From: Lytechinus pictus | Taxonomy: Eukaryota | NCBI RefSeq assembly: GCF_037042905.1 | Contig: NC_087245.1 | Location: 33,544,001-33,608,000, forward strand | Direction: 5' to 3' | DNA length: 64,000 nt | Part shown: positions 7,657-58,099 of the stretch, one piece after another | How positions within the stretch are numbered: position 1 is the first letter of the stretch | Layout: the number at the start of each line of letters is the position of its first letter | Program-made: the position numbers and the translations under genes | The notes under the pieces: generated by a model | Seen by the model: only the letters and a program-made list of their open reading frames with translations | Databases searched by the model: none | What the model was told of the DNA's origin: nothing

Positions 7657-8590
7657 GTTAAAGTTTACATGCAAGACTCTCTAACTCCGCAAACGTAAGT
7701 CACTTTTCAACCAAACTCGGATGGTAGATGTACTTAGGGGACCTGCATGTTATGCTACAGTCGGAGGTCACATGGTAAGGTCAAAGGTCATTTTCAGGTC
7801 AACGTTAAAGTTTACATGCAAGACTCTCTTATGACACCTAACTCCACAATCGAAAGTCACTTTTCAACCAAACTTGGATGGTAGATGGACTTGGGGGACC
7901 TGCATGTTATGCTGCAGTCGGAGGTCACATGGTTAGGTCAAAGGTCATTTTCCGGTCAACGTTAAAGTTTACATGTAAGACTCTCTTATGACACCTAACT
8001 CCGCAACCGTAAGTCGCTTTTCAACCAAACTTAGATGGTCGATGGACTTGGGAGACCTGCATGTTATGCTGCAGTTGGAGGTCACATTGTAAGGTCAAAG
8101 GTCATTTTCAGGTCAACGTTAAAGTTTACATGCAAGACTCTCTTATGACACCTAACTCCACAATCGAAAGTCACTTTTCAACCAAACTTGGATGGTAGAT
8201 GGACTTGGGGGACCTGCATGTTATGCTGCAGTCGGAGGTCACATGGTTAGGTCAAAGGTCATTTTCCGGTCAACGTTAAAGTTTACATGCAAGACTCTCT
8301 TATGACACCTAACTCCACAACCATAAGTCGCTTTTCAACCAAACTTGGATGGTAAATGAACTTGGGGGACCTGCATGTTATGCTGCAGTTGGAGGTCTCA
8401 TGGTAAGGTCAAAGGTCATTTTCAGGTCAACGTTAAAGTTTACGTGCAAGGCTCTTATGACAAGTGTTATTCCATCCCAGTCATTTCACAATGAAGTTTC
8501 GATACAGTTCTGTTGCGTGCCCTCGCAAATCACGATATTTCTGGTTATTTTCATAAGTGGGCGAGACACAAAATCGCTTTTGCCTTGTTC
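7657..8590 (+). repeat. 157-bp tandem array with a Helentron/HINE-like 3' end
   Basis: GTTAAAGTTTAC unit starts at 7657, 7804, 7961, 8118, 8275 and 8432. The unique tail ending GGGCGAGACACAAAATCGCTT...TTGTT recurs at about 42090-42390. Confidence 0.85.
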
Positions 8591-9216
8591 ATTCTACAAT
8601 TTCATCCAATTTGTGTTAGCATGCACAAATACCAGCCATCCTACCTCCGCACCGGCCGGCAGGCGCGGTCAGCCATGGCGCTTACATACTCAAGCGATGG
8701 CACTGCCGCTGGATTGTGAGGCGCATTAATGTGGTGCAGCGAAATTTAGATGAAGAATGTTCAACCTCACGTATATTTGTTATCATATTGATATGCAAAA
8801 GTCATAAAATTGCTATCACCACCACGTAATATTTTAGGAAAAATACAGGAATAAATACTAAATATTTTTAAGCATGATATTTGCTGTAAAAATCTTTCAA
8901 GTAAAAATGTTGAAAATGAGGAAATGAAAAAAAAAATCAACTCTACAATCTACTAAAAAAGTGCGCTGAGTGAGGGGCGGAGCTTAATAGTGGTCACAAA
9001 ATAAGCTTGACTAAATCGGGTTAAATTAGCTGATTGGTTTATTTAATGGCAGAACTCAATCCTATTTACTGAAGAATTAAAAACACATTAAAAAACACAA
9101 GACAATAATCTAGTAATATTTTTAATTTAAAATGTGGTTCATTTTTGTCAATTGTTTTCATATTTTTGAATTTCTGTTATTGAAATTTAGTCTTTTCATA
9201 AACTGTTAGTTTACCT
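8590..9216 (+). mobile_element. Right-half fragment of the CAACG-TIR (P-like) family, ending at the GTTTACCT site
   Basis: Collinear with about 20790-21390 and 18770-19375; stops at GTTTACCT (9209-9216) where another TIR begins. Confidence 0.85.
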
Positions 9217-9741
9217 CAACGAACGTAGAGGGCAACAACACACATCAGCGTTGCTATTAGGAAGGTCCACTCGATGCGCGCATACAAGGCCCGTCAAAAC
9301 ATACATGGCTCGATACTGGACCATAATTTAATTTGGTCTGTTAATTAGGTCTATCTTTAGACTAGGGCTTACCTGGGCTTGAGCTTGGCTGGTGGCCGTA
9401 TTCGATCTCTGCCTGATGGGTTGCAAAAAAGTTGGGTCGGATTTGTGGATATCACATAATTATTTTATATTTTCAGACTCCGATCTACACTGTAATGGAA
9501 AATAAGGATTCTAACCTTGAAAATTTATCGTTGCAACTGGCAGTTAGTGCCACATCAAGTATTGTCATAATCTGTTAGTTTACCTCTATTTTGATATTAA
9601 TCTCTGAGAGTGTATTGCGTCGGTTCATGGTTTCGTTGGCATGACTACCAAATTGTTCGCGCACTTCAATTGTATGCGCGTATCGAGTGGACCTTCCTAG
9701 ATAGCAATACTGCAAAGTGTTGCTGCCCTCTACGTTCATTG
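9217..9741. mobile_element. Rearranged CAACG-TIR piece: inverted right TIR, inverted middle segment, forward right end
   Basis: TIR at 9217-9272; 9289-9558 is the reverse complement of the family's middle region; 9559-9741 is a right end finishing CTACGTTCATTG. Confidence 0.75.
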
Positions 9742-12155
9742 ATAGAGATAAACTAAAAGATTATGACAACAATAGATTCAAATAATAGTAAAATAAAAAT
9801 TAACAATGGAATGATAATGTATCTTATTTTATATTCTTTGTTAATCTTCAATAAAGAGGGTGAATTCTTGTCATTTAATAAACCACTCTGCTAATTTCAC
9901 CCCGATTTTGCCAAGCTCATTTTGTGACCACATTTAAGCTCCGCCCCTCATTCAGAGAACCATTATAAAGTAGATAGTAGAGTTGATTTTTTTTCATATC
10001 CTCATTTTCAACATTTTTGTTAGAAAAGTTTTTACATCAAATATCATGCTTAAAAATATGAACAATTTATATCTGTATTTTTCCTAAAATATTACTTGGT
10101 GGTGATTATGATTTTATGACTTTGCATATCAATTATGATAACAAAGATATGTGAGGTTGATACATTCTTCATCTAAATTTTGCTGCACCACAGGAATGCG
10201 CCTACTCAATCCAGCGCCATGGTGGTTTGACCATGCCCAGCCGGCGTCCCGGTAGGTTTGGCCGGTTTACCGGTTGGTGGTATCTGTAATTCTGCATGCA
10301 TGCTTACATAAATTAGTGTAAAATTATAGAATGAAAATAGTATCTGTGACATATAACCTTTGCCCCTTGATAGTTCATAAGTCGAGACCCGTCAGAATAT
10401 ACATGGCTCGATACTAAACTATTTCGGTCTTATGTTCGGTCTAACGATGGACTAACGTTTTAGATCTAGGTCTATGGCTTAATTGGGTTTGCTCGTGTAG
10501 TGGCCGTATTCGATCTCTGACTGGTGGATTGCAAAAAGCTGGGTCGGATTTGTGGATATTACATATCTATTTAGTATTACATATCGTATTCATATTTTTA
10601 GACTCCAATCTACACTAAAAGTGAAAATTCAGATTCTTACCTTGAATATTTATCGTTGCTCAACTGCCTTAGTGAGCACTTTTAGAAATGTACGTCCACA
10701 TAGTGGACTGGTACGAAATGACGTCATTTTTTGGCCTGCCATATGCCTCAGGTCTTCACACACGTCCACTATCAAAATCGAGAACCTCGCCACATCCATT
10801 TTGCGGTTCTCCTAAATCATAGACGACGTGCACGTGAGTGACGTCATTTTAACCGTTCAAGCCCAGCATGAAGATCAACCTTTCCCTTTTAAAAGACAGT
10901 TTTCAGTGACTTTTCACAAAATTAATGTAAGTTGTACGATGCATTATGTTTATCATATTTGAAATTGCTTTCTGATCTCGAAAATATACATCGATATATA
11001 TCCCAACTCGCGTAAAAAGGAATCAAAGCAAGTGAAAGGGCACATGTGCACAAGTTGCACCTTCGCATCACCCGACCGGGTCGCCGGGCGATGGTGCGCC
11101 AGACCTTCCGGGTCGGGCAGCGTGTCATGACCCGCTGGTTATCGCGCTGTTTCGAGTGGACGTACGTACACGTACAAGTCGAGTGAAATCTAAAGTATTC
11201 GCATCTGTAGTGAACGAGGGCAGACGACGACGTTGACTCGAACGATCAGAGGACTGCTACGTCGTTCACGTTCACTGCTCCTAAAAGCCCTTAGTGCCAC
11301 AACAGTGACAGACCAAGTCCATATCCTTCGAGTCCATATCTAGCTAGGTCGAGTCTGTCGAGTATGCGGCCAGCACTGTTGTTTGCGCAGTACGCGCATG
11401 TACCCATATAAAAATAATAATAATAACAATACATGAGATTTGTATAGCGCACTTTCCATCTCGATTAGATGCTCAAGGCGCTTTAGAGCAGAACAACAAA
11501 AACTATTTACATAATACATGTCTGAACAAGAAGTCAATGTCTATCAAAAACCGTCTTATACAGGTATGTTTTCAGGTTGCCCTTGAAGGTGGTCACTGAA
11601 GTCTGGGTTTTCAAACTCTGTGGGAGAGAATTCCATAGGCTATGCCTTGCATGAGCAAAGCCCGTTCCCCGCATGATTTTGTGAGAGATTAGATGATGAG
11701 GATCGTAAATTTCTTGAGGGTTGGTAATTATGCATCATTATGTGATCGGGGAAGTTTCGGCGCTGTCAGGACAGAAGATCAAGGTCTTGGCTTTGGTGTT
11801 GGCTGGTAGTTTTGGTAGGGGCAGTGAAATTAAGCAGAAGAACGGTAAATACATGTCATCAGACTATGTATTTTAATTGATGTGCAAACTACGAAGAATC
11901 ATGACTACATTTTGTCTTGTTTTTTTTTGCAAAATGCATTAAAATTCTAAAAATAATATTTTACATTCTTTGTTGGTGTTTTTATTATCCATGAAAAATA
12001 ATAAAATTTAACAAACGAAAAAAAAATCAACTCTGCAATCTACCCTAATGGTTCACTGAGTGAGGGACGGAGCTTAGAGTGGTCACACAATCTGAGCGGA
12101 GTGGACCTTCCTCAAAGCAATACTGCAAAGTGTTGCCTGTCCTCTACGTTCGTTG
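9742..12155 (-). mobile_element. Inverted CAACG-TIR copy (D), lacking its right end, with two secondary insertions
   Basis: Reverse complement of the family body; left TIR at about 12099-12155; interrupted at about 10670-11293 and 11410-11745. Confidence 0.85.
11410..11745 (-). mobile_element. 3' tail fragment of an L2-like LINE/SINE
   Basis: (TTA)n tail and AAAGCGCCTTGAGCATC...AGTGCGCTATACAAAT motif on the minus strand, preceded by LWNSLP...FKGNLKTYLY-like remnants. Confidence 0.7.
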
Positions 12156-12437
12156 GTAATACGCGTCAACGAACGTAGAGGGCAGCAACACTTTGCAGTA
12201 TTGCTTTTAAGGCCCGGTCACATATAGGCGACGCACGTGAGGCGCATGGCCCACGTGTTGAATTTTGGCAGTTTTTGTCAATGCGTTGTTACTCGCTAGA
12301 TCTGCGCAATTGTTCGTTAAGCGTTCGACGAGCGCGTTTTACCAACGTTATGTATTCGACGCTCTCCGCTTGTGCGTCGTGATATTTTGAGCATGCTCAA
12401 AAATATGCGCAGAGCTCGACGCATGACTCTATTCGCC

Positions 12438-13711
12438 ATGAAGTCGCCATCCATTCGCAAAGCACGCTAGACTCAATTGAAATATAAAATTGCAGTTCTC
12501 CAACATCAGCATAACCTAATGGCACTGACTATTCACCAACTACAAGTCTCCAGAGAGAGAAAGGAAAAAAGTCAACGAAGATACTGGGTCCGACCCTGGA
12601 TCGGAAGGAGAAGACAGTTTGGCTTGTATGATCAACTTCTTGTAGAGCTCCGCAACGAAGACCAGGCAGCCTTCAAAAATTTCATGCGAATGCCACCAGA
12701 GATGTTCGACGAACTGCTAACAAGAGTGGGCCCGAGTATCACCAAACAGAATACAACCTACAGAGATGCCCTCAATCCTGGCCTGAAGCTTGCTCTCACC
12801 CTTCAACATCTTGCGTCTGGGACCAAGTATCGCTCAATGTCCTCAGTATCGCTCACAATACCATATCCCTGCTCATCCCAGATGTGTGCCAGGCCATCAT
12901 CGAAGAGGACAAGGGTGAGATGATGAAGTGCCCCACAACTCCCAATGAGTGGCGTGCCATATCTGACCAGTTCATGGAGAAGTGGAACTTCCCCCATACA
13001 TGTGGTGCACTCGATGGAAAGCATGTCAGCTGCAAATGTCCAAACTACAAAGGATTCTACTCCGTTGTCCTCATGGCGCTCGTAGATGCTGATTATCGCT
13101 TCATCTGGGTAGACATTGGTGGTATGGGATCGGCATCGGACGCTCAGATCTACAATGCTTCTGAGCTGAGAGAATGTGTTGAAGATGGCAGTTTAGGCCT
13201 CCCGGATCCAGATCCTCTTCCCAACGACAACCAGGATGTACCATACTTTTTCGTCGGCGACGATGCATTCGCTCTACGCCCTAACATGATGAAGCCGTAC
13301 AGTCTTAGAGGTATGACGCAGTCGGAGAGCATCTTCAATTATCGGCTTTCCCGAGCCAGAAGGGTTGTCGAAAATGCCTTCGGCATTCTGTCCAACAGGT
13401 ATCAAAATCTCCTGACCACAATGCAGCAGCAGCCAGCTACCGTCAAGCTCATTGTCACGGCATGCATCATCCTCCACAACTTGATGAGGACAAGGTACCC
13501 AGGTATGCAGAACCAGCAGCTTGACCGTGCCGAGGACCTTGGTCATGACTACGTCCCAGGAGCATGGAGATCATGCCTTAACATGCAAGACACCATCTCT
13601 GTCGCTGGCAGCAATACCTCCAGCAGGGAAGGAAAAAGGCAGAGGAATCTTATCAAGCACTGGGTCAACTCCGAAGCCGGTGCCGTTCCATGGCAGGAGA
13701 AAATGATATAG
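12438..13711 (+). pseudogene. Harbinger (HARBI1/ALP1-like) DDE transposase, disrupted
   Basis: Motifs YWVRPW, FKNFMRM, GALDGKH, GDDAFAL, FNYRLSRARRVVENAFGIL and ACIILHN. Lesions: in-frame TAG near 12468, frameshift near 12840 between ORFs 12477-12923 and 12884-13711, and an apparent short deletion at CKCP|NYKGF. Confidence 0.92.
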
Positions 13712-15760
13712 ACATTTATGTGAACAGTTCGGGCAGCTTTGATTATACAGAGATGTGATTGGATGATGGTTGATTAATGCTTTGTACTATTTCATTTCAT
13801 TCTTTATAAACTGTTTATTTGACAAGCATGCACTTGCAAACATACATAATTATACAAACGCACACACACACGCTCGCTAACAGCGCAAATACATTTGATT
13901 ACAAATCCACACACACTTTTCTCCTACATGTGTCTATTCTTAGTTTTTTTCATATTTCCCCTCTCTTTACCTTTTGGCTCTTCTTTGTAAAGAAACCTGC
14001 CGGAAACTTTTTTTTTCTTCAAAACTTAACTTTTGTTTTCCCTGCCTGATAAATTGACACTGATTTGAATATAAAATATTTTCAAACTATTTTTCTCTGG
14101 TAGTGTAAGTAACAAAATATATTTTCTTAATAACATAGTATTATTTCTACAAATGGATACATTGCTTTATAGGTTTTTTTTTTTGTACTGGATATCACCT
14201 GAGTCTTTTTTACCAAATGTGTTCTAATGTACTTCTGCTCCCATTTTCCTGATATCCCTTTCAATTCCTATTCTTTATCTTTTTTCATTATTCATGTCCT
14301 CTCTTTAATTATGTAATTATATTTTGTAATTATCATAAATTAGAGCTATTTCAAGAACTAAATGTATTCGCGTTTTTATATTTCCATTTCATTGATTATT
14401 ATGTCGACTTGTATATTGTGTAGATCCAACTTGCATGTTGAAGAAGTATAAGTTTAATAAACACATTTTCATGTAGTTTGACAGGAAACAGGACTGTATT
14501 GTATTTATTCATTGCACCAATTGTTTTTATTAAAGGCCTTGCAAAGTTAAATTAGTTATACCCCCATCCACTTTTAGTGGGAGGAAGGAAGGGGGAGGGG
14601 TACAAAACAGAAATGGAATAAACTAAAATCATTATAAGTGTTTTCTTTCTTAGCATTTCTATAACATTAAACTCTTTGTCTTAATCTTTTGCATTAAATT
14701 TTCATTTTATTAACTTGGCAAGTCCCCTTCATGCTTGACCCATTAAACTCAAGATTTAGTTTACCATAGTTACTATATCAGTTTTCATTGTTTATTGGTA
14801 TGATTTGAAGCTATTCCGGTAGTAGCAAATCAATAGTTAAAACAATATAAACGAACAAAAATGAACAAAAAATTGGTACAAGCACTGAAACTTTAATTGA
14901 GGTACTTGTTTAAGAGGGATAGTTTCCATAATCTACTGCACATTAAACAAGACGTGCTATAATTAGAAGGACAAAATCGATTGATTACGGTGAAATAAAC
15001 ATTTTATTGTGTTCAATAACCAACGCTTTCTCTTTTGACATTTTTGTAATATTAAAATCGAATACAAAGCACATTGTTTAACAGTTGAAATGAGAGGTTG
15101 ATAACAATCATTTACCAAGACATTCATTACCACTTGTTATCAATCCACACTGTCAACGTGAGAAATGGGCAAACACAAAGGATATTATTTCAATTAAACA
15201 TATGAAATAACAAATTTTCTATTTGAAATACTTGTAACAATTTTATTTTTTAACTTAAAAAAACGGATGAATACAAAACACATTAATTGTACGTTGAAAC
15301 GATTCAATATCTAACCTTTTCTCTATCAACAATCGCTTTTTAACAATGAAATAAAATACTACAAAACGTTTTGTGTAAAAGCAATTATTTATCACCACTT
15401 TTTTAAAACTTGTTTTCAATCTTTTATACAACTACACTGTCTATATGAGAAATATGCAAACACGAAATGCTTTGTTTCACATAAATATAACCTAATTATC
15501 CAACTTCCTAATTGTACAACTTATAACACTTTTTTCCATTTACAAAACTCATGAACATTAAACACGGATGAAGAAAGAAACATTATTTTCACATTCAAAA
15601 TATTAAATAACCAACATGACTATTGTCAACTTCTTAACAATTAATAGATGCTTAAAACTCGCCACCGCGTCCTCATTATTTAAAAGCTCAACAATGAAAT
15701 ATGTCTTAAAATCCAAAACTGTCCTTGTGCATCTTTCTATAGCGTTCCTCCCAATCTTGA

Positions 15761-17570
15761 TCAAGACTGATTCTCACCGGCACCAGACATAGTAGGAGTA
15801 TTTAAATCCCTGGGTGTCATCTGGCCCGAGGTCGAAGATGCCATCTGACCTGAGGTTGAAGATGTCTCCAATAATGAAGATAAGCCTGATATGTTAGCCA
15901 TATCTCCGAGGTCCCGCTCACAGGTTGTGGGGGAGCACTTGGTGGGCACTGCGGATGATATCGGACACGCTCTGCTGCTGCTTGGGGTGGTGGTATTGAT
16001 GCTGCTGCTGATATCGATGTTGATGATTGGGGTGCTGGTGTTGCTGATGCTGCTGCTGCGGGTATTGATGTGGCTGCAGTTGGGTGTAAGGCAGATGGTG
16101 GGAGAGCTGCGTTGGACCTTGAGGAGGCGGCGGGATCTGTACCTCTCCACGTAACCGCAGTCCTGGGATTGCCATATCGATGCAGTTGGTGGTTTGGTGC
16201 TCTTCCACAGGTCTGGGGCCGGCTGCCACTGCTCCGCCGGCTTGGGAGAGGACGAGAAGGGGGGGGGGTGCAGAGCTGGGTTGGAAGGAGCTGGAACGTG
16301 ATGGTGTGACTCGTGGAGGCTCTTCCTCGTCGCTATCTTCCATAGCCTCTTCTAGGATCCTGCTGATTGCCGTGCGCGCCTTTTTGAATTTTCGTTCCGA
16401 CAAGTTCAACAGTGTCCCCTTCACGTAGTTCCCAAAGACTTCTGCAGGTGTCTGTGGTCGCATTGCCTGCTGCAACTGGATCATCTGCTGGCTAGACTCC
16501 TGCAGCCGCTCCTGTAATGTGGCCAGGACTGTGTCTTCCAACTTCGTGCTCTTTCTCTTTCTACCAGCATTATGGGAAGATTTTGGAGCCTGTTCCTCCT
16601 CTTCGGTCACCTCCATGACGACCAGGGCGCACTCAGTTTCAGCAGCCGAGAGATCTCCACTGTTTGCATTAATTGTATCCTTCACCTGTAAGCACAAAAC
16701 AAAAATATACCATGATTTACAAACAATATTTTTTAAACATTCCTAAGGCTAAATTGACTACAAAGTTTGGTATAAAAACATTCGACCTATAGATACAATT
16801 ACATTTTTTGAACGATGGTAACATCACAAGTTAAATAACATTAAACAATATAAAAAGTTCAAAAATATGTACTTACACTGCTAAGTGGCTCTGGTCTGTG
16901 GTACACGATCTTTTGAAGAAATTGGAACTTCTTCAATGTCCAGAGCTCCCTCTCTGTAAATACCCGTTGCCCGGACCCAGACTTAGGTATCTTTTCTAGT
17001 CGCGTGAAGTTGTCCCTCATGCCCCTGAACCAACCTTGCAGATGAGATACCTCCTTGGACGTGGTTTCCGCCTGCTTCTGCCACGCAGCGTTCTTCAGAT
17101 CTGTCCTCCTGTAGTTCATAACTTTCTTGTTCCATAGCATCTCGTGTTCCTCCAGGAAGGCGACCATCAATTCCTCCTCCTCATCGGACAGCTTGTTGGC
17201 CCTTTTTTCTCTCTTTTTGCCTTTTTTTTTGGAGGATCTCTGCGACTGACGACACATGCGATGCCAGTGACACATGGCTGTCTACGGACCCAGTATGCGA
17301 ATGAGTGGGGGAGCGTTGAGGGGACGAGGAAGGAAAGGATTGAGCATCCACCACGTCACCATGCTCAAGGGCAACATCAGGGTCCAGACTGGGCTGGCGA
17401 TGGTCCAGGTTGGGAGTAAGCTCATGATCCAGGCTGGTCTCCCGATGATCCGGGTTGGCAATAAGCTCATGGTCTTGGCTTGGCTGCTGAGTGTCCGGAT
17501 TGGGGTTGGGAAGCTCCTTGTTGCCTCTGCGGCCTCCACGACCTCTTCCTTTACGACGACCACCAGTCAT
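15761..17570 (-). pseudogene. Harbinger DNA-binding partner gene (MADF/Myb-SANT-like), two exons, frameshifted
   Basis: ATG at 17570 (MTGGRRKG); MADF-like LWNKK...AAWQKQA...GWFRGMRDNF...KSGSG in ORF 16859-17275; GT-AG intron 16686-16876; exon 2 in ORF 15918-16697. Frame breaks at homopolymer runs near 17225 and probably 16260; the true stop is uncertain. Confidence 0.85.
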
Positions 17571-19971
17571 TGTCTTTGTTACCAAGATGCAAAGATGAAA
17601 ATTTGGGTTGTAGGTCTAAACTTATCGCTACACGAGGTTCTTTTTAGTTTTGCAGCCACAGTCACGTGACTGGAAGTTTTCGGTCGCGGGCTGCGCGTTG
17701 AACGCGCAGTGCATGCGCTAGCCATTCGTTCAACACGCTCGCAATACGTGATGCATTCGTTGGGAGGTTTTGTATATGCGCTCTGTGTACGGTCAGTATG
17801 CGCCAAGTATACGTGCAGCGCGTAAGCAATATGTTATGTATTCGATGCAAGTTCGCTAGCCTTTCACAAATTCTGACAAGAGTTGAGCGCACAACGACGC
17901 ACTGGTCATATTTTCCAATTTTCAATGCGCGGGTCGGGCGTCAGGCTATATGTGACCGGGCCTTTAGGAAGGTCCACTCCGCTCAGATTTTGTGACCATT
18001 TTCTCCCAGAGCACTTTTTTGGACGATTGTAGAGTTGATTTTTTTTCGTTTGTTCAATTTTACTATTTATTATTGATAATAAAACCTCCAAGAAAATATG
18101 TCAAATAATATTATTTTAGCATATTTGTATTCTTTAAAAATTGTAAAACAAAAGGTAATCATGATTCTTGTAGTTTACATGGCAATGAAAATACATAGAC
18201 TAATGACATTTGTGTTACCGTTCTTCTGCTTAATTTCGCTGCCCCTACCAAATCTACACAAACTAACGCCAGAGCCAAGACCGTGATGCTCTGGTCTGGC
18301 CGCGCCGAAACTTCCCCGGTCATCTGTACCTCGGTGCGCTTACTGCACTGCGTGAATGATAATGCTGACTGCACTGCACTGGCATGATAATCTCGACGCG
18401 ACTCGACTTAGCTAGATATGGACTTGAAAGATATAGACTTGGTCTGTCATTGATGTGGCACTATGGCGGATGAGCAACGATAAATATTCAAGGTTAGAAT
18501 TTTAATTTTCACTTAGAGTGTAGATTGTAGTCTGAAAATCTAAAATAATTATGCTATATCCACAAATCCAACCCACATTTTGCAATCCATCAGGCAAGAT
18601 CGAATACGACCACTAAACAGCAAAGCCAAGTCCCAGACCCAGTCTAACGTTAGACATAATATTAGACAGCAATTATCTGGTTCATTATCGAGCTATGTAT
18701 ATTCCGACGGGTCTTGACTTGAGACGAACTATCAAGGGGCGAAGGTCTATGTCACATCTACTTTTTTCATTTCATAATTTTACAAAAATTTGTGTTAGCA
18801 TATGCATGCAGCCCACCGTACCCTACCTCAGCACCGACCGGCCCGGGGCGCCGGCGCGGTCATGCCAGCCATGGCGCTTGTATAAGAGGCGGTGCTGGAT
18901 TGTGTAGGCGCATTATGGTGCAGCGAAATTTAGATGAAGACGTATCAACCTCACGTATACATGTTATCATATTGATATGCAAAGTCATAAAACTGTTGTC
19001 ACCACCATGTAATATTTTATGAAAAATAAAGGAACAAGTATTTCATATTTTTAAGCATGATATTTAATGTAAAAACATTTCAAGCAAAAATAATGATAAA
19101 GAGGAAATGAAAATAAATCAACTCTACAATCTACTAAAAAAGTGCTCTGAGAGGTTTTCGGTGGTCACAAAATGACTTGGCTAAATCCGGGTGAAATTAG
19201 CAGACTAGTTTATTTATGACAGAATGTCCTGTGTTACTGAAGATGTACAAAAAAATTGTGACAATAATTTAGTGATATATTATTTTAAGAATTTGGTACA
19301 TTATTATTTAATTTTTTATATATTTTTTGTTTTCATTGTTTTAATCTACTATTGTCATAATCTATTAGTTTACCTCAACGAACGTAGAGGGCAGCAACAC
19401 ACGACAGTGTTGCTTTTAGGAAGGTCCACTCCGCTCAGATTTTGTGACCACTTAAGCCCCGCCCCTCACTCAGCGCACTTTTTTGGTAGATTGTAGAGTT
19501 GATTTTTTTTCGTTTGTTCAATTATACTATTTTTTATGGATACTGAAAACTCCACGAAATAATGTTAATATTCTTTAATAACTGTTCATTTATTTTTTGA
19601 AAAAAGTAAGACAAAACGTAATCATGATTCTTGTAGTTTGCACATCAATAAACATACATAGTCGGATGACATTGAATTACCTCTTTTCTGCTTAATTTCG
19701 CTGCCCCTACAAAGCTACACCAACCAACACGAGAGCCAATACCTTGATCTTCTGGCATAGCCGCGCCGAAACTTCCGGGACACATCGGTGCGCGTACTGC
19801 GCAAATGCAATGCTGGCCGCACTAGCAGGACTGGCAGGATATCTAGACGCTACTCGACTTAGCCAGATATGGACTTGAACGATATGGACTTAATCTGTCA
19901 TTGATGTGGCACTAACTGCCAGTTGCAACGATAAATGATCAAGGTTAGGATCCGAATTTTCCCCTACAGTG

Positions 19972-20530
19972 CCCGGCCCCCCCCCCCCACTCAGTGTTAT
20001 TTAGGGTACGCCTATGCTCGTTCCCTCCCTTTGAAAGCACCCCCCTATCGGAGGTCTGCCAAAATTTCTGAACCCCCCTTTCGAGGGCTTCTCGCGGGCT
20101 TTTTCTGCCTTAGAGACCCCCTAAATCCGAAATACTGCTCAATGTACCCCCTATCTCAGGTGAGCTCTAATTCCAACAAAAGGTCCGTACTTAAATTTTC
20201 AAAATGAAATAATCCTGAATTCAGGATTATTCAGGCTCATTCGAATAAGCTTTCAAAACTAGCAGGAATCTCAGGAATTCGATCCCGGGATTTGATCAAT
20301 TTTTCTGTGTTATTCAAAATATTTTATAACCCCCTTTTAAAATTTCTCAGGAGTCCGAAGAGAGAGATAAAAAACACCCCCTTTTTAAAGAAATCTCCGG
20401 GTGAAAATACAAATACACCCCCCTTTTTTACAATTCGCGGACCGGACTTGTCCCGCGAAAAAGTATCCCTTTACCGGACATTTTGGGAACACGCATGCGG
20501 TCCTTCCGACCCCGGAGTGAGGGGGCCGGG
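19972..20530. mobile_element. CCCGG-terminated non-autonomous DNA element in copy B
   Basis: Termini CCCGGCCCCC / GGGGGCCGGG; 8-bp TSD CTACAGTG (19964-19971, 20531-20538). Confidence 0.85.
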
Positions 20531-21392
20531 CTACAGTGTAGATCGGAGTCTGAAAGTATAAAAGAATTAATCGATATCCACGAATCCGACCCAACTTTTT
20601 TGCAAGACATCAGGCAGAGCTCGAATACGGCCACCAGTCAAGCTCAAGCCCAGGTAAGTCCTAGTCTAAAGTTAGACCTAATTAACAGACCAAAATTATC
20701 TGGTCCAGTATCGAGCCATATATGTTTTGACGGGCCTTGACTTGTGAACTATCAAGAGACGAAGGTATATGTCACAGCTACTTTTTTAATTCCATAATTT
20801 CATCCTAATTTGTGCAATTAGCATGCACAAATACCAGCCAACCGTATCCTACCTCCGCATCGACCGGCCGGCCGGGGCGCTGGCGCGGTCAGCCATGGCG
20901 CTTGCACTGTTGCTGGATATTGTGTAGGCGCATTAATGTGGTGCAGCGAAACATAGATGAAGAATGTTCAACCTCACGTATATTTGTTATCATGTTGATA
21001 TGCCAAAGTCATGAAATTGTTTTCACCACCACGTAATATTTTAGGAAAAATACAGAAATAAATATTGAATATTTTTATGCGTGATATTTGCTGTAAAAGT
21101 CTATCAAGTAAAAATGTTGAAAATGAGGAAAAAAAAAAATCAACTCTACAATTTACTAAAAAAGTGCGCTGAGTGAGGGGCGGAGCTTAATAGCGGTCAC
21201 AAAATGAGCTTGACTAAATCGGGGTGAAATTAGCAGATTGGTTTATTTGATGGCATAATCAATCCTGTTTACTGAAGAATTAAAAAAAGAAAAGACAATA
21301 ATCTGGTAATATTTTTAATTTTGAAATGTGGTACATTTTTTGTCAATTGTTTTTATATTTTTCTATTTCTATTATTGGGATTTAGTCTTGTC

Positions 21393-22608
21393 CAACGAAC
21401 GTAGAGGGCAGCAACACACAAGCGTGTTGCTCTAAGGAAGGTCAACTCCGCTCGAATTTTGTGACCACTCTAAAAAATAAGGTGGGGTTTTGGGAAATTT
21501 GTCGAGTTGATTTTTTTTCATTTGTTAATTTCAAATATTTTTTAATGAACAATTATTAGATCGGTTATTCTGGGTATAAATATTAAAGATATTACTTTTA
21601 TTTTTAAAGAAAATATTTAGCTTAAATAATCATGATTTTGAAATTTTCCTCATTTTGGAATATTAAGTCTATGACGAGGATACCTCATATCTCTTATTTT
21701 CTTCTGCTGAATTTCGCTGCACCACTAATAAATGCATAGACAACCACCGTAATAAGCGAGGTCATTTTTCTGGCCTGGGTGCGCCGAGTCTGGGCCGGTC
21801 GCGCAGCTAGCTAGTGACGTTGATGATGCGCTGGGGCTTCAGGCGACTCGTCATAGACCTTCTAGCAACATAGACAATGACGTCCAATTTGCCTAGTCTG
21901 ATTTGAAGTGCAATTGCTTCAGGGCTGATGTTTATCAACGATGATTGTTCAAGGTTAGATTTCAAATTTTTAATTTCATTCGACTTTTAAATCTATAAAT
22001 CTGAAATAAAGGCGCTGTTTCCCCGAAATCCGGGTCTAAGTTTCAACTTCGAGTCCGAGACTATGGACGGCGAAAAAACCCCATGCATCGGATGCATTGC
22101 ATTGGCTGCGCGCTGCGCTGCAGCTGCACTGTGATGATGGGTTCAGCGAAGAGCTCAGAGAAAATAAGGTGGTCATATTCAATCCCGAAATGCTTTGCGA
22201 GTGGTCACAAAATCGTCTCGACGCAAATCACCTAATACAGCCGTCTGGTGAAATCGCTGATAACAACAATCACCGATTTGGTAATGATTTAGTTTCTAAA
22301 ACTTATATTTGTAAAGTTTTAAATATCAACGTATGTTTTTAAATGTATGTATATTCTCCAACATAATTTTTTAATGTTATCTTTGATATCGTTGTAGTCA
22401 TATTCTTTCATATTGTTTTCGTGATCGCTACTAATTTGTTGTTGTATTGGAACCGCGTATGATTTCGTTGGCATAAATGATAAAATATGCGCGTACCTCA
22501 GCTGCATGCGCGTATCGAGTTGACCTTCCTTAGAGCAACACGCTTGTCAGAGTTATCAATAGATTGATAACTCTGACGCTTGTGTTTTGCTGCCCTCTAC
22601 GTTCGTTG
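21393..22608 (+). mobile_element. CAACG-TIR copy C (diverged subfamily, about 1.2 kb) nested in copy B
   Basis: TIRs share private variants (ACAAGCGTG loop, GGTCAACTC); perfect 8-bp TSD GTCTTGTC (21385-21392, 22609-22616). Confidence 0.92.
22548..22575. mobile_element. 28-bp palindromic mini-insertion in the right TIR of copy C
   Basis: CAGAGTTATCAAT-AG-ATTGATAACTCTG flanked by an 8-bp duplication ACGCTTGT (22540-22547, 22576-22583); absent from the left TIR. Confidence 0.85.
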
Positions 22609-24124
22609 GTCTTGTCATAATCTGTTATTTTACCTCTATTTTGTTATTAATCTCTGAATGTATCGCGTCGGTTCATGGTTTCGTTGGCATGCCTACCAAA
22701 TTGTGCGCGCACTTCATTTGTATGCGCGTATCGAGTGGACCTTCCTAAAAGCAACACTGTCGTGTGTTGCTGCCCTCTACGTTCGTTGGTTTACCTATAT
22801 TTTGCTGTCACTCCGTGAGTGTATTGTATCGGATCATGGTTTCGTTGGCATGACTACCAAATTGCTCGCGCACTTCATTTGTATGTGCGTATCGAGTGGA
22901 CCTTCCTATTTTTAGCAACACGCTTGTGTGTTGCTGCCCTCTACGTTCGTTGTACGCGTGTAGCCTGCTGGCGAGCTGCGCAAATGCAGCTGCCCTAGAT
23001 AGATATCATGCGCGCTCGTGGGATTTTGATTTTTGCTTTCAGGTGTTGTAAAATACAAATACCGAATATTTATTGTAATGAAAAAAATATATCGCAGAAT
23101 CGTTTTCTTCAGGGTATGGATCGATACATCACCCTATATATGAGGTTCTGTATACAAGCTACCGTGCAGAAATTGCTGGTATATGCCACGATCGCGGCCA
23201 TATACCGGATTACGTAATTCCAAAAAAAGGGCAATTGACCAATCAGAAGCCTTCTCTCATACAACCCATCTTATATAATATTATACAAATAATGAATATT
23301 TATGAGTGCAATGGACAGAATACTTCATGAGGTGAAAGATGAAATGATCCATCTTTCACCGAATGAAGTATTCTGTTCATTGCACAAATGAAAAAAAAAA
23401 AATCATTATTTGGTTTATATGACACCTGAAAATTGAGTTTGGTCTGTTTATTGTTACGTCATTACACCATGCGCTTTGCTGGTGCCTGCAGCCGCAGCAT
23501 GAGCTGCGGAGCTGCAATGACAATGACAATGACAATGATTTTATTTACCCATGTCACCCTAATTCGGGTATTGGGGACACTCATAGAACATAACATATTC
23601 AAACCATTTCAATTATATTTACAAAGTATTTACAAATATATACAATCACATATTTACAGAGTAATGGAATAAATACTACATGAAATTACTTTAGAGACGT
23701 AGTAACGGTCAGTGAAAGGAATGATGTGTCTCTAAATCGATTGGTGAGAGAAGGGGGAGAGACAAAAAGGAAAAAGAAGAAAAGAGAGAAGGAAAAACAA
23801 AAGGGGAAGAGAAAAAAGAAAAGAACAAAAAGATAAATGCAGTCTCGGTGCGCGCGTGCAATGGGCAAAATCGTATGGATCCAAAATTGCACGGTTGATG
23901 ACGTCATTGCAAAATGGGCTGTCATATAACATACAATAATTTCTTCTTCCCCCACTACATTTCTTTCTCCCTCTTTTTCCCCTTTTCCCTTGTTTTTTTT
24001 TGCCAGCCGATTGGAGGCGGGGCATTTGCCCCCCGTGTCTCCCCCTATATTTACGCCACTGATAACGGAATCAGCCAGGTTCGCCATGGATATCCTATGA
24101 TTTTTGGTTGAAATTTATAATTAC

Positions 24125-24457
24125 CTAGTGGTTCGTAACAGGAGACTGAAATATTGAATCCTTCCCTTCTTCCCCGTTTAGATGTACCGAATTCAATATG
24201 AAGGGTATGTCCTAACGTCAAATAAGGAGGGAATTGAATATCCTGGCCTGTGTAACGTTTAACAGTTAGAACATCTACAGCGTCTATTACATCCACGTAA
24301 TCCTTTGGTGACTCCACACTAAAGTAATGAAACGTGACAATGATCCTTTTATCCAAAGTCGCGTTGATGTACCATTCCTGGGAAATATCATTTGGGTAAA
24401 GAGAAGGATATTCTAGAGATGTAATCGTGGCGGTACTTGAGCAATCCAATGTCAGGT
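24125..24457 (-). CDS. Internal exon encoding one CUB domain of a host extracellular/membrane protein
   Basis: CSSTATITSLEYPSLYPND..EWYI...IIVTFHYFSVE...DYVDVID...YTG...LHIEFGTS...EGFNIS matches the CUB pattern; acceptor TTTCACAG and donor G|GTAATT; 333 bp, phase 1-1, no stops. Confidence 0.88.
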
Positions 24458-24922
24458 CTGTGAAAGGGAATTTGAATAAAAAATTTAGACATACCGAACG
24501 AAAAGGGTTTAATGACACAGGACATCATAACAGATTAAAAACGTTATGTTGGTATTATTTCAACATTACAAGCTCTGTAACATTTGACCTCTAGTTATAA
24601 TAACCCCTTCTTTGGCAAGTGTGAATTTATTCTCAGGGGTTCGCCTTTCTTATGACATTGATCGCGAAATAAACAGGTTAGTAAAGGCTCCAAGACGCAC
24701 GGAGCCCGTTCGAAAAAAGAACAGTATAAAGTCATCAGTATAAAAACGGATATAAATACTGTATCATAGATCAAGCCCCCTCCCCGTAAGAAGGTACTCA
24801 AAGTAAAAGTGAATCTTTTCATGACTATATAAAGCCATCAAGGAGTGAAGCGTTACCCGGAAATATCATTTTTTTCCCCGCAAAGATAGCCCCCAGTCCA
24901 TATATTCACGACCTTGCCCCTA

Positions 24923-25922: not shown

Positions 25923-28748
25923 TATAGATAATGAAAATTTTGCGCAATGTCAAAAATCTTTGCGATAACTGCATATATCATTGTCCTTTCGGAAGCTCGC
26001 AGTTTGATTAATTTTGATAGCCCATGTCAAAACTACTCGAATAAGATACATAACACTTACTAATGACAGTTGCCATGGTTTCAGAAGTCGAAATCACAAT
26101 CAAAGTGATCCAGGTGTAAAATACATATAGGAAATATTTCAATCTTGATAAGAGAGATAGGGGACAAGAGAGAGAGATTATCGTTATACTCATCACTTGA
26201 CATAGACACAGACACATCAAGTCAACAAAATACTGTCCACTCTGTTGGGTAATGTATGTAAACAAAAGTATATATAATATTCTGGGCAGCTATTCTAAAA
26301 TTGAGCAAATTATTACCCAATTATTAGTTTTTATTATCATATTTGGGTAGATTTTAACCAATAGTTGTGTGGACAGTATGTTGCCCATGGTTGTTTAAAA
26401 GTTGGGATTTTTTGCCCAACTATTTTAAGAGTGAATCCTATTCACTTTAATATAAGATTTTTGTTTTTGCTCGGCCTGATCGTTAGCAATGCATTTTTTT
26501 TTTAAGAAATAAACTGATATTCAAATCACGTGGATGTAAAAAATCATTTTCAAACGTTTTCATATGATTTTCTATTAATTTTTTATATGAATTTTCAATG
26601 ATATGAGTGAAATAGTAAAGGTCGGTTCAACATCGTCTCACTTACATGTATATCCTTATTATCTTTTATAATATTTGCAACCTGAATGGTAATGGTTATG
26701 GTTTATTGAAGAATTCGTTCGCAGCCAAAGGCTTAATTGCGGAACCTTTTCCAATATAAGTACAATAATATAAACATTACAATAAATTTCATAATTACAT
26801 GATTACTAAAACAAAAGAATCTTGCCTAAATAGGTGAGTACGCGGGATGGTATCGCGCATTTACACAAGTATAGACACTTATACAAAAAAGAGAATATTC
26901 ATTGAAAACACACACGCCATATTTGAGTAAAACTAAGAAGCGGGGGGTATCGGAGCACTTGAATAGTGTGATTTAGCAGAAGTGAGGAAGTATGGTGGCC
27001 CTGAAGGGACATCGCAAATAGACCAAATCGCGAATATTCACGACGAAATTGGCGACGAAATTCACGACGTCGCCAATTCCGTCGTGAATTTCGTCGTCAA
27101 TTTGAATATTCACGACGAAATTGGCGACTAAATTCACGACATCGTGAATTTCGTCGCCAATTTCGTCGCGAATTATTCACGACGTCGTGAATTTCGTCGT
27201 GAATTTGTTTTGCTTGCCTGGGCGGTATGCGGGTTGAAACCAATTCGTCTGCTGCTAATTCCTCCACTCACAACAGGGTCTACATTTATTTAGTCTAATG
27301 CAATTCTGTCCATTAACTTTTCGCCTAACAACTATATGGTCCAATAACCATTTGGTCCAGTCATCACTTCGTCTAATCACCAGTTCGTCTATGACCATTT
27401 CGTCTCATAACTAGTTTGTCTAATATCAATTTTATTTTCCTTAATTTCGCCCAATTAACACTTAGATCAATTAGACCAAATGGCATGTGGAATAAATGGC
27501 AATTGGACCAACTTGGTTATTAGACTAAATGGCAGTTAGACCATGTGGATAGTGAACGAACTGATGGTAGACCAAAATGATAGCAGACGAGTTGGCATTA
27601 GACCAATTGAAAATAAACCATTGAAACGACAGAACGATGTCCATGCACTGCTATCCATATGCATAGACTGAAACAGGGGGAGGGGGCCGAAGGGCCCGCC
27701 CCCCCCTACTTGCGGAGCAAAAAAAAAAAAAAGGGAAGAAAGAAATAAAAAAAAAAGGAGGGAAAAGAGATCTGAAAAAAAAAGAAGAGGAGGAAGACGA
27801 GTGAAAAAAACAAGATGAATGAAAGACATGGAAATAAAAAGAATCTTTCATGTCACTATATAAAAATTTTCGCTCGCGCTTCGCGCTCGCATTGCCTGTT
27901 GGGTGTTCCAGGGGCGGATCCAGCCTTCGCCAATAGGGGGGGGGGGCCGGAATCATTTTGGTTTCTGTGAAGGGGTAGTCTTCTTAGCTTTATTCTTATA
28001 AATCAACATAGATATATAATATCATAATCCTTATTTATATAATGTGAGCGCGAAGCGCGAGCTGATTTTTTTTGGAAATCTTATGTATTTTTCTTAAAAT
28101 TTGAACATTCTGGGCAATGTTTGTTTTCCTAAAAAAAGATGTGTATGCAAATAAATAATTACTACGAACGCGAAGCGCGAGCAGAAATAAACTGGTGGAA
28201 AAGGTACCTGTTAAAGACTGCATGCAGTTAGTCATGAAGACGTTATATATTTAAAAAATCAAATGATGCGAGCGCGATGCGCGAGCTGAATTTTTGGACA
28301 TTTTTACCTAAAGAATGGAAATTCTAAGGACTTTTTGTAACTTAAACAGAATAGGTATATAATAAACAATCGATGCGAGCATGAAGTGCGAGCGGAAATA
28401 GTCGAGATTTAGACCGAAATACGGGACACTCTATTCATGTTTTGTAAATTTTATAAAGAATGAGTAATTCCTACATCAATGATGCGAGTACAAAGCGCGA
28501 GCAGAAAATTGTTTATATTGTGATCTGAAACTGGATAATGATTTAAATGGAGAACAAGTTGAATATCTGAATAAACATGCGCGCGCGTGTTTCATATTTA
28601 GACCTAGAATCTAGGCATTCTAAATACATCTTTTATAATTAAAATCAAAGCGAGCGCGAAGCGCGAGCTTAAACTATTTGATATTCCGATCTGAAAAAAG
28701 AGTAAATTTCAGCTCTATATTTTAAGCACTTTATAAGAAAATTGTTTT

Positions 28749-31728
28749 TGTGTATGTGTATTCTGACTCTAATACACACTTGAACTCAATACTCGGTCTC
28801 GATCTCTACTCAATAACTAGGCATGTCTGCTTGGCTTGGAGTCACATTCTGAGGAAGGCAAAGTGATATGGAAAGTATAAACAGATGGAGTTGAACAAGG
28901 GGTTGTTCATGGTGGGGGTAATACAGCATGGTCAATATTTACACAACTGGTCTGGGGGTGGAAACATGATGATAGTGAGCTTGTGAACGGAGATGGAAAC
29001 AGTAGTTGAGATCATGAGGCATGAATTAATAGCATGATAGAATGGCAGAATGAGAGGATGGTTTGATGAAGAATGAATTGTGTGTATGAACACAATATCC
29101 CTCCCTTGTTTGGAAATAAACTTGTACTAACAAAAGATCTTCACAAAGTTCGATCACTGGATCTCATTAACAAATACAAATATATTCCTTGAGGTATTGT
29201 AATATTTGAAGGCAATAACAACAATTGTAAAATTTTCTAATTTACTTGAACCAGTCACATGTGAACTTAGCTATTAATGGAATTATTTTTTTAAGTCAAA
29301 AGAAATTGTTCTCAGTTCTTCCTCTTTTTCTCTGCTTTACTACATTATTTACAAAGTTTCACAGTTCTGTTCCGTAGGTCATAATCAATCCAGTTCCGTA
29401 ACCAAGTTATCAGTCCATATTTCTCAACGTTACAATATATTTAGAGCTGAACATTGCTCTTCTGAACGTTTCTCCTCTTATTCCTTCTTCGTTGGACAAC
29501 GGTCCATGTCTCGTGGTTGTCCACCTTATCAACGTGTTGCTCCTGTGTCTGAGCACCTCCCGCTAAGCGTATCAGTCCCAGCTCTGTTGATGTCTTCCGA
29601 CTGAGTGCGCATCCACTGTTGCCTCTCACTACCACAAATCGAGTCTTGGTCGACGATGACGCTGTCGACACTCTCCCAAAGAATTGTCCCAGGAGTGGAA
29701 GTGGGCTGCGACTTCCATATGCGTATACTCTCACGCGACTGGGGGTCAACCGGAGTGGTGAGCACCGGCCTCTCATCCAGCGAAAAGTACGCTCATCAAT
29801 GATGTCGACTGACGATCCCGAATCAACAAGGGCATCAATATTTGCATTGTTCACCATAATTGATCTTTTAGGAAGGGCATTCCCCTTCTCCCTCACGCTG
29901 AACATTACACTGTCATCATCTGAGTTGAAGGTCTCATTAAAATTGTCACTCGTCTTCGCTGCCAAGTTTGCACTGTCCCCAATCCCAGCAAATTCGTCGT
30001 TGTTGACATGGTTGATAGGACCTTGTCTCGAACTCAAACCACCAGACCTCAGTTTCGAACGGCAAACTCGTGCAAAATGACCTACCCGTTTGCAAACAAG
30101 ACACTCACGATTTTTGGCGGGGCATCCTCGATCTCCTGGTCGATGTCCCAATATACCACAGTTCCCGCATATATTGTCATGATTGTTCACACTCTCTGAT
30201 GATTTCGGTTGCCCCACTTGCCTGTCACTGCGATGAGACTGTCTCACATTTCCTCTTTTAACTACACACACAGACTCCGAAGTTCCTCCTGAGGCCTCCA
30301 TCACTCCAGCCTGCCGGTCTGCAGATTCAGTCGCCCTCGCTATTGAAAGCAAGTCATCCAGTTTCAGGTCATCTATCCTGAGTAGCTTCCTTCTAAGTGA
30401 GCTTGACGTACACTTATCCACGATTTGGTAACGAATATGTTCATCGGTGTGCTCACCAAATGCACATGATACTGCCACCCGGGGGGGGGGGGGGCCACTT
30501 CCATTGACAAGTGGATACCATGCGCGACCATGTGGTCTCGAAAAGCACCCTAAACACGTATTTTCCATATTCTGAAAATGCAAGTATTGAAAACAAAACG
30601 ATGCTCTTGGCAAGTATTCCCTGAAATGAACCCCTAAACAAGTACAGCGATATTTTATTATGTCACGGGTCCATCGGTCGTCGGTTTTACCTTTACACAC
30701 CGTTTGGTTTAGTACGGCCCCACCTTCCACACCTCTTGCAAATCGGACTCTAAACACGTAGTGTTGGGGCAAAAAGGACATCCTTTATAAAACATTTTAA
30801 TTTTGTTTTATCATCCCCGCAAATTTGACCCTAAACACGTAGCTGTCCTAGCGAAATAGATACCCTTTTTTCATTATTTTTGTGTTTTTGACACCCTTAT
30901 CACGTTACGTACGTAACGTGCCCTATCTTGAAAAAGACATCCTTTTTACGTGTTTTTTTGGTCGCGCATGGTATCCACTCGTCAATGTAAGTGGCCCCCC
31001 CCCCCCCCCGGGTGCTGCCAATACACGCAGTCGAGTGCAATATTCATCGACTGTCTCATCATCACTTTGAACTGCTTGTCGAAATGCATGTCTCTCGAAT
31101 ACCACATTCTTCCGGGGCTCAAAATATTTGGTCAGAGCCTTCAGCGTTGTCTCATACTTAGGCTCATCCTCTTCTACCAGTGTCTCATCATCACTTTTGG
31201 ACTGCTTGTCGAAATGCATGTCTCTCGAATACGGCTCGACGCGTGGACCTTTCACAGCCAGCACCCTTTGATGTTCGTTCGGCTAGGGCAGGGATTGCCT
31301 GGCCAAAATGGAGGCGGGTATTTGAGTACTACCTTGCAGCATCAGGAGTCTCAGCAGATGGTCAGAAGCGGGCCGTTCTACTGCATTGTGCAGGACCAGA
31401 AGTTCAAGAGTTATATGAGACTGAGAATGAGTTTAAGTGTGTATTAGAGTTAGAATACACAAAATTGGCGACGAGGATAAAAAACCCTGAAAAGGCAGAG
31501 AATATGGCTCGACGCGTGGACCTTTCACAGCCAGCACCCTTTGATGTTCGTTCGGCTAGGGCAGGGATTGCCTGGCCAAAATGGAGGCGGGATTTGAGTA
31601 CTACCTTGCAGCATCAGGAGTCTCAGCAGATGGTCAGAAGCGGGCCCTTCTACTGCATTGTGCAGGACCAGAAGTTCAAGAGTGAGAATGAGTTCAAGTG
31701 TGTATTAGAGTTAGAATACACATACACA
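28749..31728 (-). mobile_element. Rearranged Ty3/Gypsy LTR retrotransposon remnant (gag + protease only)
   Basis: LTR 28749-29094 (TG...CA on minus) preceded by PPT AAGGGAGGGATAT; gag with two zinc-knuckle motifs and protease ALVDSGSSVDII in ORF 29441-30781; gag VVFERHAFRQAVQ in 30923-31264; PBS TGGCGACGAGGA at 31466 and gag start at 31504 on the plus strand. Confidence 0.9.
30478..31012. mobile_element. CCCGG-terminated MITE inserted in Gypsy gag
   Basis: TIR CCCGGGG..CCACTTCCATTGACAAGTGGATACCATGCGCGACC; TSD TACTGCCA/TGCTGCCA (one mismatch); gag reads across the site after removal. Related pieces lie at about 39210-39507 and 47645-47690. Confidence 0.85.
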
Positions 31729-42090: not shown

Positions 42091-42392
42091 TAGGTCAAAG
42101 GTCATTTTGAGGTCAATGATATGACACATATCTCTGCAACCGTAAGTCACTTATATACCATACTGGGGTTGTAGGTGTACTTAGGATACCTGCATCTTAT
42201 TGTGTTCGGTATGGTCATAGTTCATTTTGAGGTCAACATTAAAGTTTACGTTAAGACTTATGAAAAGTGTTATTTCATCCCAGTCATTTCACAATGAAGT
42301 TTCGATACAATTCTGTTGCGTGCCCTCGCAGGTCACGTTATTTCTGGTTATTTTCATAAGTGGGCGAGACACAAAATCGCTTATGCTTTGTT
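42090..42392 (+). repeat. Second fragment of the Helentron-like 157-bp-repeat family
   Basis: One degenerate unit plus a tail nearly identical to 8430-8590. Confidence 0.8.
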
Positions 42393-58060: not shown

Positions 58061-58099
58061 ATATGGCTATTCTCAACAGTAACTCAGCTCTACGTGTAA

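What the first reader, a model, noticed from the sequence alone, without database searches (positions are those of the whole stretch)
8590..22959. Self-targeting 'Russian-doll' DNA transposon: repeated insertion into one ~30-bp window of its own right end
Seen: copy A (12167-22952) contains B (19376-22788, TSD GTTTACCT), which contains C (21393-22608, TSD GTCTTGTC). Both sites lie in GTCTTGTC-ATAATCTGTTA-GTTTACCT-CTAT, 164-180 bp from the host copy's right end. Three more junctions hit this window: the TIR at 9217 follows GTTTACCT; the end at 9741 abuts ATAGAGAT, 4 bp further along in inverted copy D; and the fragment at 9559 starts exactly at GTATTGTC. Different TSDs and diverged subfamilies indicate separate events. 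Established: CA...TG termini with 7-8-bp TSDs fit the P superfamily, and Drosophila P elements hop locally near other P ends. Inference: this family carries its own preferred landing pad, a safe-harbour strategy I do not recognise as described.
Basis: partly seen in the sequence, partly recalled or inferred. Interest (0 to 1): 0.85.

Follow-up and report, generated by a model that had tools for sequence, protein, structure and literature searches.

The report
Motif-guided self-nesting P-type transposon
A family of cut-and-paste jumping genes related to the fruit-fly P element tends to land a short way from a small CGCG-containing DNA signal, and because one end of the element carries two copies of that signal, copies keep landing inside each other like Russian dolls.

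Summary
The nest is real: A contains B, which contains C, each with its own target duplication. Self-insertion is genome-wide but not confined to a 30-bp window. 22 of 428 right (3') ends carry a guest, all 102-180 nt from the tip and 11 at 102 or 106; 0 of 387 left ends do (one left case with a looser anchor). About 0.03 were expected. The likely cause is a family-wide rule: ordinary insertions lie 9-110 nt from RCGCGY (105 of 447 ends, against 20 for a control hexamer and 2% background), and the right end carries a conserved pair of this motif. Other repeats with the motif are hit too, and about nine in ten copies sit elsewhere, so a safe-harbour strategy is not supported. What binds the motif is unknown. 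Earlier scan notes report tip-nesting and motif-guided stacking elsewhere in this genome.

The parts
12167..22952 (+). Copy A, non-autonomous P-type element (about 1.6 kb of own sequence), 7-bp duplication TACGCGT; host of the Harbinger and of B
12210..17963 (.). PIF/Harbinger inserted at nt 43 of A's left end, TTA duplication; transposase frames 12471-13711 (+, split over two frames), MADF frame 16859-17281 (-)
19376..22788 (+). Copy B, inserted 164 nt from A's right tip, duplication GTTTACCT (19368-19375, 22789-22796)
19972..20530 (.). Unrelated 559-bp insert in B with an 8-bp duplication
21393..22608 (+). Copy C, inserted 180 nt from B's right tip, duplication GTCTTGTC (21385-21392, 22609-22616)
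22548..22575 (.). 28-bp palindromic insert of another family in the loop of C's right terminal repeat, 8-bp duplication; probably an excision footprint (reading taken from an earlier scan note)
22488..22514 (.). Paired TRCGCGYA-type motif of C's right end (nt 59 and 78 of a standard end): proposed guide signal
   Evidence: sequence
22704..22730 (.). Paired motif of B's right end; C landed about 96 nt from it
   Evidence: sequence
22865..22891 (.). Paired motif of A's right end (outer copy now has one changed base); B landed about 79 nt from it
   Evidence: sequence
8585..9216 (+). B-type host fragment that ends at the 161-nt site (GTTTACCT)
9217..9741 (.). Rearranged unit with two right ends: 71 nt of right end, inverted interior 9285-9558, 183 nt of right end from 9559; no duplication pairs its ends
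9742..12155 (-). Old inverted copy D, cut at its 157-nt site, with unrelated inserts; its left tip lies 11 nt from A's left tip

Best explanation
A, B, C and D are gene-less derivatives of a P-superfamily transposon, moved in trans by a 25-kb partner that encodes a THAP-P transposase (identity of ends and domains shown; mobilisation inferred). Target choice has two layers. (1) A guide: the enzyme is drawn to within about 10-110 nt of an RCGCGY motif, often a pair about 20 or 42 nt apart (association shown; that a protein tether causes it is inferred). (2) A fine site: near the guide it picks the best match to a weak 14-bp palindrome, WWR-GTnnnnAC-YWW (shown). The element's 3' end carries a conserved motif pair at nt 59 and 78 and the 5' end carries none within about 400 nt, so each copy offers one strong target just inside its 3' tip. 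Every guest brings a new 3' end, so nests grow by positive feedback. Self-nesting is thus a by-product of a genome-wide targeting rule. I put the binder at about 55:45 between a host CGCG-binding factor that this transposase associates with and the transposase's own DNA-binding domain.
For: Right 22 of 428, left 0 of 387, none at 186-393 nt. The 14-bp motif alone gives the 73-185 zone 21% of the target weight of the three searched spans, yet it holds 22 of 22 hits. Ordinary sites: 26 of 100 filtered flanks carry the motif at 9-110 nt against 11 of 425 distant tiles, and 18 of 28 two-sided sites against 5% expected; the element-derived hexamer is enriched in both halves of the data (12 of 49 vs 7 of 223; 13 of 51 vs 4 of 210). 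Genome-wide: 105 of 447 ends on one strand against 20 for RCCGGY, background 41 and 43 of 1829 tiles. 10 of 28 core pairs are 15-23 nt apart against 4.7 expected, p 0.007; the element's pair is 19 apart in C, A, B and the partner. Interior nests at 404, 433 and 726 nt in C and 359 and 521 nt from the left in A lie 36-105 nt from the interior motifs; three A/B interior searches found none. A Harbinger-like repeat with a motif pair is hit at least 7 times. A second 8-bp family with 1181 ends hits the zone once, which favours a family-specific guide.
Against: No binding, chromatin or transposition data. The motif was first found in these flanks, and the 110-nt limit was chosen afterwards. About three in four single flanks lack RCGCGY and 10 of 28 two-sided sites lack the narrower motif. 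CpG and CRE-like words are also raised near sites, as generic open chromatin would give. The motif alone explains roughly 10-fold of a 700-fold excess. The single A/B interior motif at about nt 412 drew only two guests, both in one host. 4 of 23 flanks of the second family also carry the motif, some inside this family's copies. 14 of 22 nests lie on three contigs holding 24% of the genome, which the motif does not explain. 6 of 22 lack a seen second duplication.
Confidence: 0.68

Rival explanations
1. Generic open chromatin. The CGCG words only mark unmethylated, promoter-like DNA. The 3' end is such a site, and the enzyme, like Drosophila P, enters any accessible DNA with no specific tether.
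For: Drosophila P favours promoters and origins (PMC7776569, passage). CpG is 42 per kb near sites against 25 far away; CRE-like words are enriched in one half of the data. Flanks outside both ends are about 70-fold enriched for further copies. Several other families enter the terminal repeats.
Against: The second 8-bp family hits the zone 1 time in 1181 ends against 22 in 891, though it may have its own fine-site needs. RCCGGY, which also holds a CpG, is 5 times rarer near ends. CCAAT is not enriched. Pair spacing is non-random.
Confidence: 0.2
2. True self-recognition (closest to the first reader). Transposase bound at a resident 3' end, for example bridging the terminal repeat and the internal repeat at nt 360, captures the DNA between them; selection keeps this as a safe landing pad.
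For: The internal repeat sits at nt 65 from the left and nt 360-361 from the right in C, A, B and the partner although C's interior is unlike the others. The right zone is about 15 times hotter per base than outside flanks.
Against: Unrelated repeats and single-copy sites with the motif are hit by the same rule. No hits at 186-393 nt inside the supposed loop. About nine in ten copies are not nested (my tally).
Confidence: 0.08
3. Local hopping from the sister chromatid, one composite copied as a unit, or misassembly.
For: Local hopping is known for P. Nests cluster on C1-C3. One guest differs from its host at 1 of 424 bases (L085). One-sided junctions (9217, 9741, L060, L136) look like aberrant transposition or recombination. 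L124 and L136 have guests differing at 3 of 399 bases.
Against: 8 of the 22 join different subfamilies or host types. C-in-C guests differ from hosts by 0.2-6.2%, like random pairs (median 1.6%). The same site is hit in both orientations, in different host variants and with unrelated outer flanks. 16 of 22 show the duplication on both sides. Neither hopping nor recombination predicts the right-left asymmetry.
Confidence: 0.04

Closest known systems
Drosophila P element and P superfamily (Galileo, zebrafish THAP9 elements)
   Same: CA...TG ends, 8-bp (sometimes 7-bp) duplication, 14-bp palindromic target resembling ATRGTCCGGACWAT (PMC2577343, passages), internal inverted repeat at unequal distances, THAP plus GTP-binding RNase H transposase (PMC7776569, passages), tandem dimers sharing one duplication (L190, L185; 10.1101/158386, passages), self-insertions of P constructs (PMC4744444, passages).
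   Different: 56-bp terminal repeat; 25-kb partner; a distance-defined guide motif and a one-ended internal hot zone. I recall a hot spot at nt 19-26 of P's own terminal repeat, but one search did not retrieve a source for it.
Self-inserting rice MITEs (Castaway, Gaijin; Jiang and Wessler 2001)
   Same: High frequency of independent insertions into the same family (seen only as summarised in PMC5172404 and PMC6719617, passages; the paper itself was not held).
   Different: Tourist-type plant MITEs, not P; I could not see whether their sites are end-specific or motif-guided.
Galileo nests at Drosophila buzzatii inversion breakpoints
   Same: P-superfamily copies that gather secondary insertions, Galileo among them (PMC2775673, PMC4168063, passages).
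   Different: Explained there mainly by low recombination; no fixed zone or guide motif in the passages read.
Safe-haven targeting elements (Tx1 into Tx1d, Dada, Pokey, Ty1/Ty3)
   Same: A recurring target class reached by many independent events (PMC6719617, passage).
   Different: Here most copies lie outside the repeat, and the target is a dispersed short motif.

Membership tests
P superfamily | CA...TG termini with terminal inverted repeats | tested here: met
   56-bp repeats in A, B, C and the partner
P superfamily | 7-8-bp target duplication within a 14-bp palindromic target | tested here: met
   50 paired ends with 8-bp duplications; WWR-GTnnnnAC-YWW from 28 non-nested sites; 7-bp cases at A and L185
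P superfamily | Transposase with HTH, split RNase H and GTP-binding insertion; acidic triad | tested here: met
   PF12017, PF21787, PF21788, PF21789 above cut-off; 6P5A at E 2e-42 with D230, D303, E531 aligned to D, D, E
P superfamily | N-terminal THAP domain | tested here: met
   PF05485, 25.2 bits over 23.9, in an upstream frame of the partner; the other half of the domain is seen by eye in an earlier frame with no Pfam hit; splicing not shown
P superfamily | Internal inverted repeats at unequal distance from the two ends | tested here: met
   nt 65 from left, nt 360-361 from right in all four types
P superfamily | Long staggered donor cut and GTP dependence | not testable with these tools
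   54-70-bp two-ended minis may be excision footprints; not a test
hAT superfamily | hAT transposase with dimerisation domain in the autonomous partner | tested here: not met
   The partner's long frame has only P-type domains. No genome-wide hAT search was run.
Target-specific safe-haven elements (Tx1, Dada, Pokey type) | Most copies sit in one defined target repeat | tested here: not met
   75 of 99 unselected ends have non-family flanks; 22 of 428 right ends are occupied
Self-inserting MITE families (Castaway, Gaijin type) | Independent self-insertions far above chance | tested here: met
   22 against 0.03 expected; independence
Self-inserting MITE families (Castaway, Gaijin type) | Short Tourist-type element with 3-bp duplication (recalled) | tested here: not met
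   1.2-1.6 kb, 8-bp duplication, P-type partner

The most novel reading that the evidence does not exclude
This P-type transposase reads a paired RCGCGY signal itself, or through a dedicated partner, and inserts at a set distance from it; the element keeps the same paired signal in its 3' end, so one cis-element serves both the element's own end and target choice. It would be a natural, motif-addressable eukaryotic DNA transposon, and with the CTCF-like case noted earlier in this genome it would suggest that P-like families each have their own guide motif.
Probability: 0.25. Interest if true: 0.8.

Novelty: new variant of a known kind. Interest (0 to 1): 0.56.

Why it matters
How P-type transposases choose promoters and hot spots is still explained only loosely, by open chromatin plus a weak 14-bp motif. 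Here a natural family gives a short candidate guide motif, a distance profile, a built-in left-right control inside the element, and an apparently intact enzyme gene in two copies, so the question can be tested directly. It also explains Russian-doll nests without invoking selection, and shows a P-type element moving at 25 kb.

Tried and rejected
hAT, my first guess from the GT....AC duplication: dropped. A promoter at the hot end because it might be the 5' end: rejected, the hot end is 3' of the transposase frame. A hot spot for foreign elements at C nt 742-744: rejected, these inserts are homologous to one another and represent a longer ancestral C. Long-gap patterns were not accepted by the search tool, so the interior was covered with interior anchors; only the anchor has a counted denominator (94). 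Relaxed right-end search: the same 22 plus 4 rows that are not nests. Relaxed left-end search: 2 rows, one a real nest at 359 nt, one a local duplication. Sequencing runs: no RNA holder listed; two raw RNA runs and two contig sets laid on one C copy gave low depth and no cluster of starts, which says nothing either way about promoter activity or accessibility. No long reads or accessibility data were identified. Alternating purine-pyrimidine (Z-DNA-like) character in general: CA/TG repeats are not enriched. NRF1 as binder: its consensus GCGCNTGCGC (PMC10810270, passages) matches only in half-sites and TGCGCA is weakly enriched; left open. ORFs in non-autonomous copies: nothing family-encoded seen among frames of 130 aa or more. 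Literature searches returned no paper on a CGCG-guided or 3'-zone self-targeting P family; the library lacks most subscription papers, Jiang and Wessler 2001 and Tower et al. 1993 were not held, Repbase and Dfam could not be consulted, and no supplements were read.
Full report
Observation. The window is part of an 812-Mb animal genome; earlier scan notes call it a sea urchin's, which I did not test. The three-level nest is as described: A 12167-22952 (7-bp duplication), B 19376-22788 and C 21393-22608 (8-bp duplications). A is 96% identical to a free 1.6-kb copy and B 98.5% to another; A and B differ by 15%; C belongs to a 1.2-kb type that shares mainly the ends. To the left, a B-type fragment ends at the same GTTTACCT site, followed by a 525-bp unit with two right ends and the inverted copy D. 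The junctions at 9217 and 9741 are real but have no partner duplication, and 9559 is a plain breakpoint.

Family. The 25-letter end occurs 891 times. Paired ends give 8-bp duplications (50 pairs), and 28 non-nested sites give the palindrome WWR-GTnnnnAC-YWW, close to Drosophila P's ATRGTCCGGACWAT (PMC2577343, passages). A Pfam search for the P-type GTP-binding domain gave 25 places. Two of them lie in copies of 25,529 and 25,850 bp with the same 56-bp ends and different duplications, 97-99.6% identical over their main blocks. Their 959-residue frame carries the HTH, RNase H and GTP-binding domains, a THAP half lies upstream, and the best solved relative is P transposase 6P5A with the acidic triad kept. 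A decayed relative, 83-88% identical in protein, also lies beside the same terminal repeat.

Genome-wide nesting. With a right-end signature and a 10-330-nt gap, 22 guests were found among 428 right ends, at 102 (5), 106 (6), 118 (3), 122, 123, 132, 142 (2), 161, 175 and 180 nt from the tip, and none at 186-393. The matching left-end search found 0 among 387; a looser anchor found one, at 359 nt. 16 of the 22 show the duplication on both sides; five far ends were not reached or not found, and in L136 the far flank is the host's outer duplication. Interior searches gave 6 rows in C (726 nt once, 433 twice, 404 twice, one unclear; a third 433 case came from L205) and 0 in three A/B spans. Further cases lie at 23-65 nt of right ends, the C4 partner copy among them, and one at 33-39 nt of a left end. 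My tally over these calls is about 43 own-family junctions, 33 of them within 185 nt of a right tip, among roughly 450 insertions. All counts need exact short matches and are lower bounds.

Controls. Weighted by the 14-bp motif, 0.03 hits are expected in the 73-185 zone; the zone holds 21% of the weight of the three searched spans and all 22 hits. Flanks outside either end are also enriched, about 10 events against 0.15 (13 places listed; I set aside a duplicated pair, an internal case and a truncated end), so copies sit in generally hot places, but the right zone is about 15 times hotter per base. Guests are not simple sister copies: 8 of 22 cross subfamilies or host types, and 12 C-in-C pairs differ by 0.2-6.2% against a median 1.6% for 300 random pairs; for young pairs this test cannot separate the two cases. 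Same-site nests have unrelated outer flanks, both orientations and different host variants, although L124/L136 and L118/L127 could each share an origin. A second 8-bp family with 1181 ends hits the zone once.

Mechanism. Ordinary insertion sites are rich in CGCG words close to the duplication. After removing 124 of 236 flanks with family sequence and 12 look-alikes, 26 of 100 carry the motif at 9-110 nt, mostly 11-60, against 11 of 425 distant tiles; 18 of 28 two-sided sites carry it. The hexamer taken from the element's own end is enriched in both halves of the data. Genome-wide, 105 of 447 ends on one strand have RCGCGY in that span against 20 for RCCGGY; both occur in about 2% of background tiles. 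These 105 include the nested ends. Cores often come in pairs about 20 or 42 nt apart (10 of 28 at 15-23, p 0.007). The right end of C, A, B and the partner carries a pair at nt 59 and 78; the left end has none before about nt 410. All 12 distinct A/B nest positions lie within 110 nt of a motif, a limit set afterwards that covers 25% of the element; in C it covers 53%, so the test is weak there. A Harbinger-like repeat with a similar pair is hit at least 7 times, independence untested. Shown: the association, the asymmetry and the fine-site motif. Inferred: that a protein bound to the motif tethers the enzyme. A host factor is suggested by the absence of the motif from the 5' end; direct reading is suggested by the family specificity.

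Comparison and novelty. The element is a member of the P superfamily by every feature I could test. Self-insertion is described for rice MITEs and as a strategy of some elements, for P constructs, as tandem P dimers and as Galileo nests; all were read as passages only. Searches found no description of a short guide motif at a set distance, or of a one-ended internal zone, for a P-type family, within the limits of the library. I rate it a new variant of a known kind. Unexplained: the clustering of 14 of 22 nests on C1-C3, and most of the size of the excess.

Noticed in passing
L165-L167 (G000:C4:26160841-26186369) and L168-L170 (G000:C21:9238867-9264716): Two near-identical 25.5/25.9-kb P-type elements with different target duplications, an open 959-residue transposase frame with an acidic repeat region, upstream THAP frames, and shared LINE fragments and tandem repeats; it appears to have moved at this size. 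The C4 copy sits about 45 nt from the right tip of a C-type copy.
   Followed up: partly
   Followed up: partly
window 12210-17963; L211 585-6346; L060 5304-5713: Harbinger-like elements insert at about nt 43 of this family's terminal repeat, while this family inserts 140-152 nt from the end of one such Harbinger-like family: mutual nesting.
   Followed up: partly
L044, L050, L055, L024, L219: Two-ended minis of 54-70 bp with 8-bp duplications, probably excision footprints of this family; one sits at the 404-nt site of a C copy.
   Followed up: no
L190 (G000:C7:6597557) and L185 (G000:C2:17613378): Head-to-tail dimers separated by one copy of the shared target duplication.
   Followed up: partly
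L195, L204, L208, L209, L210: A longer ancestral C type with about 1.3-1.4 kb more between nt 742 and 744; the common 1185-bp form is a deletion derivative.
   Followed up: partly
L060 1373-5824; L136; L089; window 9217-9741: One-sided right-end junctions and inverted right tips that suggest aberrant transposition or recombination aimed at the same zone.
   Followed up: partly
L033 and L194; L073 and L191: Two further repeat families receive several insertions at or near the same position, beside CGCG-type motifs.
   Followed up: partly
window 7657-8589 and 42120-42392; 51147-51770; 56848-58055; 58099-61997: Unrelated repeats with ~157-bp and other tandem units, and long inverted pairs (26991-33319, 36487-38941, 58099-61997).
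   Followed up: no
window 24051-24524 (-): An exon-like frame that by eye resembles a CUB domain, so the nest may lie in or near a gene; not scanned.
   Followed up: no
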